Below are positions 17,897 to 63,110 of a stretch of DNA of 64,000 bases, one piece after another. Position 1 is the first letter of the stretch; the number at the start of each line of letters is the position of its first letter. The notes beneath the pieces were generated by a model, which saw only the letters and a list, made by a program, of their open reading frames with translations, had not been told where the DNA came from and did no database searches. The DNA comes from Eledone cirrhosa (taxonomy: Eukaryota), in contig OZ024763.1 of NCBI GenBank assembly GCA_964016885.1, positions 30,194,001-30,258,000 on the forward strand, read 5' to 3'. Position numbers and translations under genes: made by a program.

Positions 17897-18097
17897 ATAG
17901 GAGTAAGTAAGACCCCGACGGCTGAGCTCAAGCCGTTTCGACGGCTAATTCTGTACAGAGTACAGAATTAGCCGTCGAAACGGCTTGAGCTCAGCCGTCG
18001 GGGTCTTACTTACTCCTATTACCCACTCTACTACCCTAAGTATTGAGTACTTTGGTGCGTTATGGTCCACCTGGTTCCTTACCACTTTTCCCTCGCT
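17897..18097 (+). mobile_element. Penelope-like terminal fragment with a perfect 60-bp fold-back, inserted in (TA)n
   Basis: Arms 17897-17956 and 17960-18019 are exact reverse complements (loop aga). They contain the 3' half of the 34567-34662 hammerhead, followed by the tail tattacccactc...ggttccttaccac also seen at 34773-34853, 54871-54950 and (minus) 19750-19790. Both sides are (TA)n. Confidence 0.65.
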
Positions 18098-18959
18098 ATA
18101 TATATATATATATATATACATTTTTTTTCATATAAGACTCTCTCCGTAAATTCATTAAATAAATAAATCTCGTTACCTCTATTTTTCAATTTACCATTTT
18201 GCAATTTAATATTTTTTATTTAATTTAATTTCATCCTATAACTCGCAACATAAATTTAACGTTCCAATCTTCGGTTCACACATTAGACCATACAGACACC
18301 CACTATAGATTCTTTGGGTAGCATTTTTTCGCGGCATTTTGTAACATGAATGTAGTTTGACCCTTACACTACACTTCTTTCTCCCTTTCTTTCTTTCTTC
18401 CCCTTCTTCTTTGACGGAGTGGTGGTAGCTCATTGTAAGCCTTCGCCCCCTCACCAGATATTCATTGGTAGTTTTTCAGTTGCCAACACTTTGAGGGCGG
18501 CTGGCTGAGAAGCTAGTCGGTCAGCCGTCCCCTCTGTCTCTGATTTTTCGGACCTATGGCTTTTTACATATTCCTTTGTTATATTCCAATACCTGATGTT
18601 ATCAGTGGATTCATATGGAACCCGGTCATTGAAATGATCATAGTATAATAAACCCTTCAAGGATTTACACCAGTCCAGCCTCCTGTTATTTCATTTATAA
18701 TTAACTCCGTATTCGCACCACCAACTACACAAACGAAGATGGGTGAACTGCACTGCATTGAGTACTCCTCACAATATTACACCAGGATTGACCATACGGA
18801 ATGACCAGTTCTATCCAGTGGTGAACCTACAAACCTAAAGATATATGGTGGCTGCCAACTCATTTTCGAGTACGGCCACTATTTTATATCCATGTAGGAG
18901 AACCCCTACCGATGCGCTGAACAAGTGTGACTTTTTAGTCCAGCCAGCGACTTGAAAAC

Positions 18960-19463
18960 TCTGGTACAAACACTACACTTGTGACAATTATTGACACATA
19001 GTGCTGGGCCCATGGTACCATGTGATGACAAGTGCAGAGAGATCTCCAGAAATAAAGCAATGCCTGTGCCGTGAAGCTTTTATAGTGAGCAAAGGCACTG
19101 CACAAAGCCAGTCCCACTCTCTTAACCAAGATGATATTTACAAAAAAGAAGAACAAGTCAACATCATTGGATACCATCAGGGTTGCAGGTGTTATATCAG
19201 AGTTTTCCTTCTCCTAGAATTCTGCCTTGACAAAGGCTAAGGGGTCATCTCTCCCTGTGATTCTGGATGACCATTGACTCTTTGGATGACCATTGAGCTC
19301 CTTTGCCCTTTGACAGGTTTTGTTTTTAGTCCTGCAGGATGTCCAAAGTCACCCTCCTCACCAAGAAACCTTGGTGGGGTTGCCAGTTTAGTCGCCAACG
19401 ACCCGACCATGAGACAGGTTGTACTGGGATACATGTTACCAGTAACACCAACTGGTGACCCGA
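18960..19463 (-). mobile_element. Probable 5' UTR region of an RTE-type retrotransposon
   Basis: Minus-strand motifs gcgactaaactggcaaccccacc and aggagaaggaaaactctgatataacacc resemble RTE 5' UTRs from memory; starts at a (TA)n tract; no intact ORF. Confidence 0.4.
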
Positions 19464-19492
19464 CATATATATATATATATATATACACATAT

Positions 19493-19750
19493 ATAATTGT
19501 TTCTACTTTTGGCACAAGACCAGCAATTACCCAGTGTATTACTGGTACTTTATTTTATCGACCCCGTAAGGATGAAAGGCAAAGTTAACCTCGGCGGGAT
19601 TTGAACTCAGAATGGCAAGGGCCGTAACTCTATGCATCAAAGCATGGCGTCCGACCCTCTACAGATACTGCCAATCCACCGCCATACATATATAATTGTT
19701 TCTACGTTAGGCACAAGGCCAGCAATTACCCAGTGCATTACTGGTACTTT
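19493..19750 (-). mobile_element. Same tRNA-SINE, one full copy plus a 3' fragment
   Basis: Reverse complement of the 9525-9707 consensus at 19493-19685 and a tail fragment at ~19692-19750. Confidence 0.85.
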
Positions 19751-20439
19751 AAGGAAGTGTGGTAAGGAACCAGGTGGACCATAATGCACCACTACCACCA
19801 CCACCACTACCACCACCACCACCACCACTACTACTCTTACCACCACCACCACCACCACCACTACTACTACCACTACTACTACTACTACTACTACTACTAC
19901 TACTACTATGACCACCACTATCAGCACTACTACTACCACCACTACCATCACCACCACCACCACCACCACCACCACTACTACTACTACTATTACTACTACT
20001 ACTACTACCATTTTATCAAATATTCCAAACTGACATGTCCTCCAGTTCTTCAGGTCCTTCATAAAACAACAGACCCCCACCAACAGACCATTGTTTCACC
20101 TCAAGACCCTCACCTCACACCGCCACCACATCCTTAACTCACCTCACCGCACCACCACCACAACCCCACCATCACCACCAGACCCTCACCTCACCACCAC
20201 CACCAGACCCTCACCACATGACTCCACCACCACCACCAGACCCTCGGCCCACCACCACCATGACCCCCTACCACCCTACCCTCACCCTACCACCACCAGG
20301 TCCTTACCCTCACCCCACCACCCACTCCCAATCTATCTCCCCAGAGAGAAACAAGAACATGCTTCCAATATGTTTGCAAAATGGATTTAGAAAAAGTTAT
20401 TTAAATTGTCATTGGAAGGAGACACACACACACACACAT

Positions 20440-60200: not shown

Positions 60201-60255
60201 CTGCAATAATGAAAGGAGAAAGAGAGCAATAAATACTGGTTTGGGAACTAGAAGA

Positions 60256-60800
60256 CAACAACAATGACAACAACAGCAACAACAACGAACAGCAATAACA
60301 ACAGCAGCAACAGTAACACCACCACCAACAACACCTGCTGCAACAACAGCAGCAGCAGCAGCAGCAGCAGCAACAACAACAACAACAACAACAACAACAA
60401 CAACAACAACAACAACAACAACAACAACAACAACAACAACAACAACAACAACAACAACAACAACAACAACAACAACAACAACAACAGCAGCAGCAGCAGC
60501 AGCAGCAGCAACAGCAGCAAGAACAACAACAACAGCAGCAACAACAATAGCAACGACAACAGTAGCAACAACAACAGCAACAACAACAACAACAGCAACA
60601 ATAGCAACGACAACAGCAGCAGAAACAACAACAACAGCAACAGCAACAGCAGCAACAGCAAGAACAACAGCAGCAACAACAATAGCAACGACAACAGCAG
60701 CAGCAACAACAACAGCAGCAGCAAGAACAACAACAACAGCAGCAACAACAACAATAGCAACGACAACAACAGTAGCAACAACAACAACGACGACAACAAC
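60256..60800. repeat. (CAA)/(CAG) trinucleotide tract immediately upstream of the 60200 acceptor
   Basis: Direct reading; includes a pure (CAA) run at ~60370-60485. Confidence 0.95.
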
Positions 60801-61102
60801 ACCAAACCCCAGAAAAAAAGGACTGTCTAATTAATTTTTTCTACTTTAGCCACAAGGCCACCAGTACCCAGTGCATTACTGGTACTTTATTTTATCGACC
60901 CCGTAAGGATGAAAGGCAAAGTCAACCAATGCCTTAAAGAAGTCTTTGACAAGGGAAATAACTCTTGTTAGCTTGGCCAACATTTAATGTACATGACACC
61001 CGGTAGCTAAGCATGCTAAAAATAGCAACCAAATCTCTTTCATTTCACACCTTACTTATTGTAGTGCGCCTGAGTACTGTACAAATTTGATTATTATATA
61101 TA

Positions 61103-61340
61103 TAGGGTGTCTCCCAAAAATGTATACGCACTTCAACAAAATTTAATTAAATACTGCCTGCAAAGGTAATCAAAGTGTGTATACATTTTTGGGGGGACAA
61201 CGTGTGTGTGTGTGTGTGTGTGTGTGTGTGTGTGTGTGTATACTGGTGTCCCCCAAAAATGTCTACACATTTCAAGAATTACTAATAAATATTGCCTGTA
61301 CAGGTAATCAAAATGTGTATACATTCTTTGGGACACCCTG
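61103..61340. mobile_element. Two adjacent copies of the same ~100-bp Tc1/mariner-like MITE separated by (GT)n
   Basis: ~61103-61204 and ~61241-61340 each have ggtgtc.cccaaaaatgtatac / gtatacatt.tt.gg.gaca TIRs and a shared internal cctgtacaggtaatcaaa-like segment with 57403-57502. Confidence 0.65.
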
Positions 61341-63074
61341 TGTGTGTATGTGTGTATATATATATATATATATATATATATATATAAGGGTTAAAATACT
61401 GGAGCGTGTTGGATTTAAACACCCTCTATATATATATATATATATATAGAGAGAGAGAGAGAGAGAGAGAGAGAGAGAGAGAGAGGGTGTTTAACTCCAA
61501 CACGCTCCAGTATTTTAATATATATATATATACATATATATATATATATATATATATATATATATATATATATATATATATATATATATATATATATAAG
61601 TATATATTATGAATAGAAGAGACAGTTTTATATATATATATATACACACACACACACACACACACACACACACACACACACACACACACACACACACACA
61701 CACACACACATACACATATATATATATATACATACATATAAACATATCCATATGCATATATATGCAAACATATACACACACATTTACACAACCATATATA
61801 CAAAATACACGCTCAGACACATATATTTATACACACACACACACACACATATATATACACACACATACATATATATACACACACATACATATATATATAT
61901 ATGTATATCAAATGGCTGAAGTATTAATACAGACAGAAGTGAGGTGTGTGTCTATGTGTGTGTATACAAATTAGATTTACACCTGTCTATACAGGTGAGA
62001 AGAGGGAAGTAATAAGACAGCCACCACCACCACCACTACTACTACCACTACCACCACCACTACTACTACCACCACCACCACCACTACTACTGCTTCTATC
62101 TAATCTAATGGTGATACCATACTAAGACAACCTACTACTATTCATCTTGGTTCACACCTATATATATATATATATATACATGTATATATACATATATATA
62201 TACATACATGTATATATACATATATATATACATAGATATATATATGTGTGTGTACGTGTGTGTGTATGTATGTGTGTGTGTATATATATATATATATATA
62301 TATATATATATATATATATATATATATATATATATATAAATATGTGTATGTATGTATGTATATATGTGTGTATATATATATATATGCACATATATATATA
62401 TACATAGAAATATTTACCCCGGGTTCAATTGAGAGAAACCACAGTAAGTAATGTACTCAATACATATATATCATCATCATCACCGTTTAACATCTATCTT
62501 CCACGCTAGCATGGGTTAGACGGGAGTTGTCCTACGTGAGGCAAGATTGGTCGGGTGACCATGTCTCGCTCATATAGGACTATCTGGCAGGTTTTCTACG
62601 GCTGGATGCCCTTCCTAACACCAACCAGGTTTACAGTGTGGAACTGGGAACTTTTTACCGTGTCACCTACACGACCACATTACAGCGTGGACTGTGCATG
62701 TGTTTTTTGTTTTTTTTGTCGTGACACCTACACGACCTCATTTATTTAGAACTGGATGTTGTGGTACCAACATAACTTTACAGAGAAAGGGTGGTGTTGG
62801 TGGGAGTGCGGGTAGTGGGATTGGGTATATATTTGGTTAAGAGGTGCCTACAAACTGTAGGTTTCGCTTTGTACATAGGCAAGGCGAGTCTTCCATATAT
62901 ATATATATATTATTTATATAAGTACCAGTAATGCACTGGTATAATTGGTGGCCTTGTGCCAAAAGTAGAAACATATATATAAATAATATATATATATAGT
63001 TAATAAATGAAACAAAATGAAACACAGGAAGCAGAAATATATATTAGGTTCATGCTTGGAGGAACTTGAAGGGG

Positions 63075-63110
63075 TTTCAACGTTTCGGATAGAAGCCCTT
63101 CTTCAGAAAA
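63075..63110 (-). ncRNA. Minimal hammerhead motif of the CUGAnGA-A-GGG...CC-GAAACGU type
   Basis: Minus strand tttt CTGAAGA a gggcttctatcc GAAA cg TT gaaa. Palindromic AACGTT stem III; stems I and II are weak (3-4 bp). Confidence 0.5.

What the first reader, a model, noticed from the sequence alone, without database searches (positions are those of the whole stretch)
17897..63110. Multiple unrelated short hammerhead-ribozyme elements nested in (TA)n tracts: candidate Penelope-like/retrozyme system
Seen: type I hammerhead architecture (stem I-CUGANGA-stem II-GAAA-stem III-UH-stem I') at 55497-55541, 50859-50923, 53226-53291 (plus two relatives), 63075-63110 and, with single core changes, 34567-34662 and 34954-35004. 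These are about six families with unrelated stems but the same core, all non-coding and beside (TA)n, and four are associated with fold-back inverted duplications. Established: Penelope-like elements carry hammerheads in their pLTRs, often minimal with a palindromic stem III that works as a dimer, and copies often have inverted partial pLTRs; non-autonomous hammerhead retroelements (retrozymes) exist in animals. Inference: this genome hosts a diverse, microsatellite-associated, possibly uncatalogued set of ribozyme retroelements. No RT or GIY-YIG ORF is in the window, so the mobilising partner is not seen.
Basis: partly seen in the sequence, partly recalled or inferred. Interest (0 to 1): 0.88.

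Follow-up and report, generated by a model that had tools for sequence, protein, structure and literature searches.

The report
Penelope retrotransposon tails carrying hammerhead ribozymes
The hammerhead-shaped RNA motifs are real, and most are the truncated tail ends of Penelope-type jumping genes sitting in TA repeats, an arrangement already described from octopus; one young family has spread widely with a mismatch in the ribozyme core that likely weakens or stops self-cutting.

Summary
The motifs are there, above chance (4 perfect-core hits against 0.08 in shuffles), and a seventh family (17551-17619) was missed. Six of seven families are 3' ends of 5'-truncated Penelope-like elements (PLEs). 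Longer copies elsewhere in the genome carry the RT + GIY-YIG gene 0.3-2 kb upstream (only remnants for family D). Four families (B, C, E, G) match the Hydra clade, already reported from Octopus bimaculoides with a hammerhead and (TA)n targets. They are neither unrelated nor retrozymes. Only family F (34954) may be non-autonomous. Two details add something. First, 178 of 181 fold-back insertions pair one short with one long 3' end, as expected if each target strand primes at a different one of two RT start sites. Second, young family E (34567) carries a fixed C3-A8 core mismatch, derived from a U3-A8 core, and is predicted to misfold, yet it spread genome-wide. That makes it a candidate natural ribozyme knockout; cleavage is untested. 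Earlier notes of this scan saw the U3-A8 Hydra core and uneven-ended insertions on other DNA of this genome. Verdict: new members of a known kind.

The parts
17513..17787 (-). Family G fold-back insertion: direct arm ending at the short 3' end, with hammerhead 17551-17619 (predicted cut after 17558); short inverted arm with the ~89-nt tail at 17676-17785.
   Evidence: parent ORF in L301, L303, L305, stop to core 1210 nt
17897..18099 (.). Family E-type fold-back, one short and one long end; both arms stop inside stem II, so only half a hammerhead
34557..34854 (-). Family E fold-back insertion: direct arm 34557-34740, inverted arm with 79-nt tail 34738-34854
   Evidence: parent ORF in L218-L220, stop to core 1141 nt
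34567..34662 (-). Family E hammerhead, core CUGAGAA (C3 at 34657, A8 at 34652), long stem II, 6-bp stem III, predicted cut after 34572
34865..35060 (-). Family F copy, long end; hammerhead 34954-35004 with a private C3-to-A change; no ORF linked, candidate non-autonomous ~440-nt unit
50671..50971 (+). Family B fold-back; hammerhead 50855-50923 (predicted cut after 50916) on the short-end arm; inverted arm with tail 50671-50825
   Evidence: parent ORF pieces in L297, L298, L300, stop to core about 2030 nt
52651..52801 (-). Older relative of family C (90% identical), hammerhead 52696-52761
52861..53341 (.). Family C fold-back: long-end arm 52861-53142 (-, hammerhead 52998-53063) and short-end arm 53143-53341 (+, hammerhead 53226-53291)
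   Evidence: intact 737-aa ORF in L094, stop to core 1461 nt
55145..55303 (-). Family A short-end arm without the hammerhead core; likely the inverted arm of the next insertion
55333..55762 (+). Family A long-end arm; hammerhead 55497-55541, predicted cut after 55536; 3' end of a Neptune/Nematis-type PLE
   Evidence: stop to core 301 nt
62995..63140 (-). Family D copy (old, 14% mean pairwise difference); minimal hammerhead 63075-63110, predicted cut after 63079
   Evidence: GIY-YIG remnants upstream in 3 independent loci
53412..53626 (+). Family A-like 3' fragment truncated inside the hammerhead
54793..54951 (+). Tail-only fragments of F (54793-54832) and E (54869-54951) on either side of a TA tract; further F tails at 17387-17458, 50006-50077, 62413-62466 and an E tail at 19751-19791

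Best explanation
Six of the seven hammerhead families are the 3' ends of Penelope-like retrotransposons whose longer copies carry a reverse transcriptase plus GIY-YIG endonuclease gene (only remnants of it for family D), and the window's copies are truncated, mostly fold-back insertions in TA tracts, likely made by that protein copying uncut element RNA from two fixed start points. Steps: (1) A tandem or pLTR-bearing locus is transcribed (pLTR with hammerhead directly ahead of the ATG: shown in L095; transcription: inferred). (2) The protein nicks (TA)n (target bias: shown; nicking: inferred from PMC11167929). (3) Each target strand primes reverse transcription at one of two sites 55-95 nt apart, one strand at the short site and the other at the long site (two ends and their strict pairing: shown; priming: inferred). 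(4) Both cDNAs usually stop early and are joined head to head (structure: shown; joining: inferred), so the hammerhead, whose cut site lies about 15-170 nt inside the short end, is nearly all that survives. (5) Copies span the cut site, so their template was uncut or re-ligated there. The ribozyme likely acts earlier, on tandem transcripts, or is dispensable; family E, with a fixed C3-A8 mismatch, is the likely natural test case.
For: ORF linkage: A 22 of 30 loci; C intact 737-aa ORF and pLTR; E 6 of 30 loci plus L218-L220; sister subfamily E2 10 of 30; B 3 of 4 and G 5 of 6 fetched long stretches; D remnants in 3 independent loci. The C protein model (pLDDT 89.7) has telomerase TERT as its top fold match (E 1.9e-9). 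The A protein hits RVT_1 and GIY-YIG below Pfam's cut-offs. Hydra motifs are present in C, E and G (RWR, DKT, CxCx5C, CxxC, CxH). TA run at the 3' end in 332 of 417 copies against 9-10% background. Bimodal 3' ends in six families. Short+long pairing in 178 of 181 fold-backs, and 53 of 55 in families A, C, F whose queries held one arm only. Arms are more alike within than between insertions in all six families. Young copies: C 40 of 40 best matches 100% identical over 189 nt on two chromosomes. E core: of 92 E-lineage copies 37 CUGAGAA, 37 UUGAAAA, none C3-G8; C3 copies form one branch (97/100); predicted probability of the hammerhead fold 0.009 (E, 21 copies) against 0.33 (E2, 7 copies).
Against: No cleavage or expression data exist for any family. 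Family F has no linked ORF: 29 copies stop at one 5' point. D linkage rests on decayed remnants (46% over 28 aa to the A endonuclease). Within families, core columns are barely more conserved than others (0.96-0.99 against 0.91-0.97; no excess in G), as expected for dead copies, so selection on the core is seen only between families. Pfam does not recognise the C, E, G or B proteins and a profile search of solved structures was blank. G copies share a 5' hot spot that could mean a short non-autonomous master. Arm similarity could also come from gene conversion in hairpins. Loci are best hits, not a random sample; some are near-duplicates; B and G queries held both arms. Folding probabilities are model outputs.
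Confidence: 0.88

Rival explanations
1. The short elements are retrozymes: non-coding units cut out by two hammerheads, circularised, and copied in trans by PLE proteins.
For: F looks ORF-less with a fixed 5' edge in 29 copies. G has a 5' hot spot. One F dimer-like junction at 297 nt spacing was seen (L165). Other notes of this scan report retrozyme arrays elsewhere in this genome (unchecked).
Against: No arrays (2 of 422 cases under 500 nt). Six families continue upstream into an ORF or its remnant, with scattered 5' ends. Neither end of the copies lies at the cleavage site.
Confidence: 0.08
2. The fold-backs come from self-priming or hairpin formation of one cDNA (as proposed in PMC3846280), with the tail trimmed from one arm by the endonuclease (as suggested in PMC8557442), not from two priming events.
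For: The short ends lie in TA-rich, target-like sequence. One-sided trimming would also give short+long pairs.
Against: In vitro a PLE protein extends both target strands and starts at two internal RNA sites that bracket the tail (PMC11167929). Solo copies end at either site.
Confidence: 0.25
3. Family E's CUGAGAA core is functional, through a C-A+ wobble, protein-assisted folding or dimer formation through its near-palindromic stem III.
For: The rest of the fold is intact in E. A PLE hammerhead needed its protein to cleave (PMC11167929). Some natural core variants keep low activity (PMC3088659 section 8).
Against: The 3-8 pair is conserved as C-G or U-A in the papers read. Single C3G or G8C changes abolished cleavage in PAc. 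The E sequence is predicted to prefer another fold by 3.4 kcal/mol.
Confidence: 0.3
4. The motifs are chance matches in AT-rich palindromic DNA.
For: With one core change allowed, shuffles give about 1 hit per window; Rfam finds nothing.
Against: Perfect-core excess; the same position near the 3' end in seven families; compensatory changes between families.
Confidence: 0.01

Closest known systems
Hydra-clade PLEs, including Hydra-1_Obim of Octopus bimaculoides (Craig et al. 2021, PMC8557442; abstract, passages, supplement part 2 and supplement search hits read)
   Same: C-terminal GIY-YIG; RWK-like, DKT, CxCx5C, CxxC and CxH motifs; canonical 3' hammerhead; (TA)n targets; inverted 5'-truncated copies; tail at one end. 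The printed Hydra-1_Obim protein agrees with C and E motif by motif (compared by eye).
   Different: Long 3' UTRs (1.1-2 kb to the core, so elements over about 3.5 kb against under 3 kb); tails of 79-95 nt against the 30-40 bp given for other PLEs; different hammerhead stems; U3-A8 and C3-A8 cores in the E lineage (the listed Hydra hammerheads all have CUGANGA); hundreds to thousands of candidate copies per family.
PLE minimal hammerheads, including the U3-A8 variant of Schistosoma Cercyon elements (Cervera and de la Pena 2014, PMC4209133; parts 1-2 of 4 read)
   Same: Type I motif in the pLTR; extra base after A9; palindromic stem III; mostly single motifs from truncated PLEs; close inverted pairs; U3-A8 covariation.
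   Different: E and F have 4-6 bp stems III; B, C, E and G have long stems II; a fixed C3-A8 mismatch is not described in the parts read.
PAc (Poseidon of Anolis) in vitro mechanism (Frangieh et al. 2024, PMC11167929; parts 1-2 of 4 read)
   Same: AT-rich targets; two RT start sites bracketing the tail; hammerhead cleavage not needed for insertion.
   Different: That work saw no strand difference in start sites in bulk. The genomic copies here show that within one insertion the two arms almost always use different sites. In C the ATG lies downstream of the tail, not inside the hammerhead.
Neptune/Nematis PLEs (motif definitions from PMC8557442 passages)
   Same: Families A and D: Cx2-5CxxC-type linker ahead of a C-terminal GIY-YIG; microsatellite bias.
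   Different: Clade not resolved; no reference proteins were available for a tree.
Metazoan non-LTR retrozymes (PMC7229834, passages read; bioRxiv 10.64898/2026.07.22.740005, parts 1 and 3 of 5 read, supplements not seen)
   Same: Type I hammerhead, low GC, non-coding short copies, presumed PLE dependence.
   Different: No tandem units; six families are ORF-linked; ends are set by RT start sites, not by the cut. Only F may belong near this class.

Membership tests
Type I hammerhead ribozyme | Core CUGANGA / GAAA / UH with three stems | tested here: met
   A 27, B 25, C 30, D 22, F 26, G 21 of 30 copies each
Type I hammerhead ribozyme | Watson-Crick pair between positions 3 and 8 | tested here: not met
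   Family E only: C3-A8 in 29 of 30; met as U3-A8 in E2 (24 of 30 by strict pattern) and as C3-G8 in the other six
Type I hammerhead ribozyme | Stem covariation | tested here: met
   Between homologous families, read from alignments: stem III palindrome UAUAUA / UAUGUA / UGCGCA in C, B, G; one compensatory pair in stem II between E and its outgroup. No statistical covariation test was run.
Type I hammerhead ribozyme | Self-cleavage | not testable with these tools
   No assay; no RNA holder listed
EN+ Penelope-like element | Single ORF with telomerase-like RT and GIY-YIG endonuclease | tested here: met
   C: TERT top fold match, endonuclease part aligns to A's; A: weak Pfam RVT_1 and GIY-YIG; B, E, G 33-55% identical to C or to each other
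EN+ Penelope-like element | ORF linked to the hammerhead (families D and F) | tested here: inconclusive
   D: remnants in 3 loci; F: none in 54 loci from two searches
EN+ Penelope-like element | pLTR from partial tandems, inverted truncated copies, optional tail | tested here: met
   pLTR in L094, L095 (C) and L297, L298 (B); 181 fold-backs
Hydra clade | RWK, DKT, CxCx5C linker, CxxC and CxH around E/N, no CCHH | tested here: met
   C all motifs (RWR for RWK); E and G in the parts recovered; B has CxxC and CxH, linker altered in the copy read
Hydra clade | (TA)n insertion | tested here: met
   B 57/70, C 52/58, E 48/53, G 58/64 against 9-10%
Hydra clade | Phylogenetic grouping with reference Hydra RTs | not tested
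   Reference proteins were compared by eye only
Non-LTR retrozyme | Head-to-tail units of 150-450 bp, each with a hammerhead | tested here: not met
   2 of 422 family-locus cases under 500 nt
Non-LTR retrozyme | No coding capacity in the family | tested here: not met
   Not met for A, B, C, E, G and probably D; met so far for F
Non-LTR retrozyme | Circular RNA expression | not testable with these tools
   No RNA holder listed

The most novel reading that the evidence does not exclude
This genome holds a natural experiment on what PLE hammerheads are for. A Hydra lineage first swapped the core pair to U3-A8; a young sub-lineage then broke it (C3-A8, with predicted misfolding) and still retrotransposed to many chromosomes, so cleavage is dispensable in vivo. 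In addition, every fold-back insertion obeys a one-short, one-long rule (178 of 181), meaning the two target strands are primed at two different RNA sites by one (probably dimeric) complex, and family F is a ~440-nt non-autonomous passenger that uses the same rule.
Probability: 0.45. Interest if true: 0.62.

Novelty: new member of a known kind. Interest (0 to 1): 0.42.

Why it matters
The system is known, so the scan has mostly re-found PLE 3' ends. Two open questions become testable with natural sequences. The role of PLE hammerheads is stated as unclear in PMC8557442 and shown dispensable only in vitro in PMC11167929; families E and E2 are a closely related natural pair differing at the core. 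How PLEs make inverted insertions with a one-sided tail is unresolved; the near-absolute short+long rule constrains any model. Family C has an intact ORF and identical dispersed copies, so a (TA)n-targeting Hydra enzyme could be studied biochemically.

Tried and rejected
Rfam: 0 matches at gathering; the whole-window E-value list was filled with microsatellite-driven miRNA models (150 of 699 rows shown, none a hammerhead); two narrow scans gave no hammerhead. Generic inverted-repeat search was swamped by TA arrays and replaced by masked self-BLAST. Reading E's core as a deletion of position 7 was rejected: sister subfamilies have seven core letters in the same register with U3. G as a discrete ~270-nt element was considered and weakened: a long ORF-bearing parent exists and arm lengths vary. 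The RT in L103 is a neighbour of D, not its parent (convergent orientation). Walking upstream of F found no shared sequence. Within-family core conservation was uninformative. Pfam and PDB profile searches failed on the Hydra proteins (3 and 2 of 67 relatives hit GIY-YIG and RVT_1 weakly). Sequencing runs: no RNA holder listed; the four runs are contigs of one study and may be the assembly's source. Laid contigs showed no joints; their depth is not used as copy number. In one search contigs show both C and U at position 3 and no listed change at position 8, which agrees with the genome copies but is not independent. Lunse et al. (PLE hammerhead dimers) and Przybilski and Hammann 2007 (3-8 pair exchanges) were not held; either may already cover C3-A8. 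Searches for a natural C3-A8 core and for a count of tail asymmetry found none. Dfam and Repbase were not available.
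Full report
Setting. The window is G000:C24:30194001-30258000 of a 3.0-Gb genome, 38% GC, 56% masked as simple repeats. An octopod host is inferred: the named close homologues of the element protein are from Argonauta. The only host coding signal I tested is a C2H2 zinc-finger exon near 59715-60200.

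Observation. All listed motifs are present. A descriptor scan gave 4 perfect-core type I hits against a mean of 0.083 in 60 local shuffles. I label the families A (55497), B (50859), C (53226), D (63075), E (34567 and the half copy at 17897), F (34954) and G. Rfam models do not detect them.

Each is a dispersed family. First-look candidates in the genome were A 155, B 1842, C 901, D 803, E 2502, F 3791, G 959; only 40 were scored per search and these are not copy numbers. Among 30 best loci each, a canonical core was found in A 27, B 25, C 30, D 22, F 26, G 21 and E 0. Mean pairwise difference over the hammerhead region runs from 0.0% (C) and 1.4% (E) to 14% (D); these are best hits, so the figures are lower bounds. 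B, C and G share stem I and a palindromic stem III with compensatory changes, so they are homologous.

The mobilising partner is in cis. Longer copies continue upstream into an ORF: A in 22 of 30 loci, 301 nt from stop to core; C with an intact 737-aa ORF in L094, 1461 nt; E 1141 nt; G 1210 nt; B about 2030 nt. For C, 5 of 7 long stretches held ORF pieces of 200 aa or more. In L095 a hammerhead-bearing pLTR lies directly ahead of the ATG. The C model matches telomerase TERT best, and its C-terminal part aligns with the GIY-YIG region of A. C, E and G carry the motifs that define the Hydra clade in PMC8557442; B is their homologue (40-42% identity in the endonuclease half). A has a Cx4CxxC linker of Neptune/Nematis type. 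D is old: GIY-YIG remnants lie 1-2 kb upstream on the same strand in three independent loci. F is the exception: 29 copies start at one point about 300 nt upstream of the core, mostly next to TA runs, and share nothing further upstream except other repeats.

Insertion anatomy. 332 of 417 distinct copies have a TA run at the 3' end, against 8.6% of random positions in the same loci. Six families have two 3' ends 55-95 nt apart; D showed one within the reference used. Of 181 distinct fold-back insertions, 178 pair a short with a long end, 2 are short-short and 1 long-long; independence would give about half. In A, C and F, whose search queries held one arm only, the count is 53 of 55. Pairs with a TA run of 7 or more units between the arms were left out, and near-duplicate loci remain among the G rows. 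The two arms of an insertion are more alike than arms of different insertions in all six families, which fits one template but also gene conversion. Head-to-tail arrays are absent (2 of 422 family-locus cases under 500 nt).

Family E. Of 92 distinct E-lineage copies in the loci then held, 37 read CUGAGAA, 37 UUGAAAA, 11 other single variants and 7 could not be read by the pattern; none had C3-G8 and 84 of the 85 readable had A8. On a tree of 29 rows (most duplicate rows of the two main types and two gapped rows left out; midpoint root), the C3 copies form one branch (97/100) and U3 is found in the sister group and in both copies of a distant subfamily. So U3-A8, a published active covariant (PMC4209133, PMC3088659), is the likely ancestral state and C3-A8 is derived. 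ViennaRNA puts the hammerhead fold at probability 0.009 in E (21 of 30 copies that fitted the pattern) against 0.33 in E2 (7 of 30) (energies). E copies are 99-100% identical over 184 nt on many chromosomes with different 5' ends, so RNA with this core was reverse-transcribed many times. Whether it cleaves is untested, and no intact E ORF was found among the four long stretches read.

Mechanism. Most likely (0.88): PLE protein binds uncut RNA, nicks a TA tract, primes at the short site on one strand and the long site on the other, and the two prematurely ended cDNAs are joined. Target bias, two ends, pairing and truncation are shown here; nicking, priming and joining are inferred from PMC11167929. 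Self-priming with one-sided trimming (PMC3846280; PMC8557442) is the main rival for the fold-back step. Every hammerhead-bearing copy spans the cut site, so its template was uncut or re-ligated.

Comparison with what is known. PLE hammerheads, dimer-type stems III, truncated single motifs and inverted pairs are in PMC4209133. Hydra elements with canonical hammerheads and (TA)n targets, including one from Octopus bimaculoides, are in the supplement of PMC8557442. The one-sided tail is described qualitatively in PMC8557442 and PMC3846280. Retrozymes are defined by tandem units (PMC7229834; bioRxiv 10.64898/2026.07.22.740005), a feature not met here. Passages of PMC6765202 and PMC3884650 gave background only. 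I found no report of a fixed natural C3-A8 core or of a count of end pairing in searches, but two directly relevant papers could not be read. Earlier notes of this scan describe a U3-A8 Hydra element and uneven-ended insertions on other pieces of this genome; I saw them after reaching those readings. No note matched the E sequence or this place.

Verdict. Observation confirmed; interpretation partly supported; new members of a known kind. Interest 0.42, carried by the E/E2 pair and the short+long rule.

Noticed in passing
window 50977-51560: A further 493-nt fold-back (95% arm identity) with a tail on one side, directly after the B insertion. Its right arm has a CUGAGAA box and a GAAA box like those of B/C/G but no convincing stem I. 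No other copy in 1.36 Mb of fetched loci.
   Followed up: partly
   Followed up: partly
window 59715-60200 (-): Exon-like frame with a matrin/jaz-type C2H2 zinc finger (Pfam zf-met above cut-off); the nearby insertions may lie in introns of this gene.
   Followed up: no
flanks of L001-L226: Many more hammerhead families: 196 descriptor hits in 59 stem classes in 0.87 Mb (overlapping loci not removed), several with long stems II. PLE insertions nest in each other's TA tracts.
   Followed up: no
L188-L217 and incidental G copies: Strong 5' truncation hot spot about 80 nt upstream of the G core, at a TA-like motif; in the copies read, a variant base in the short inverted arm matched the direct arm of the same copy.
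   Followed up: partly
L301, L303, L305 (G ORF) and L300 (B ORF): Asparagine-rich in-frame inserts between RT and endonuclease, like those described for rotifer Penelope elements in PMC3846280.
   Followed up: no
L202-L208, L211 (family G): A set of near-identical duplicated copies (8 identical rows) with a CUUAUGA core, probably spread by segmental duplication.
   Followed up: no
window 58615-59637, 28758-29268, 9391-9710, 19496-19751, 57063-57247: Another abundant repeat, with tandem and inverted pieces, not examined.
   Followed up: no
window 34209-34610 (-) and 63386-63814 (-): 3' remnants of a non-LTR element (RTE-like by recalled motif, not tested) next to the E and D insertions.
   Followed up: no
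window 5968-8149, 20430-23446, 24163-25184: Tandem arrays of 80, 26 and 122 nt units at 93-98% identity; the descriptor found no hammerhead in them.
   Followed up: no
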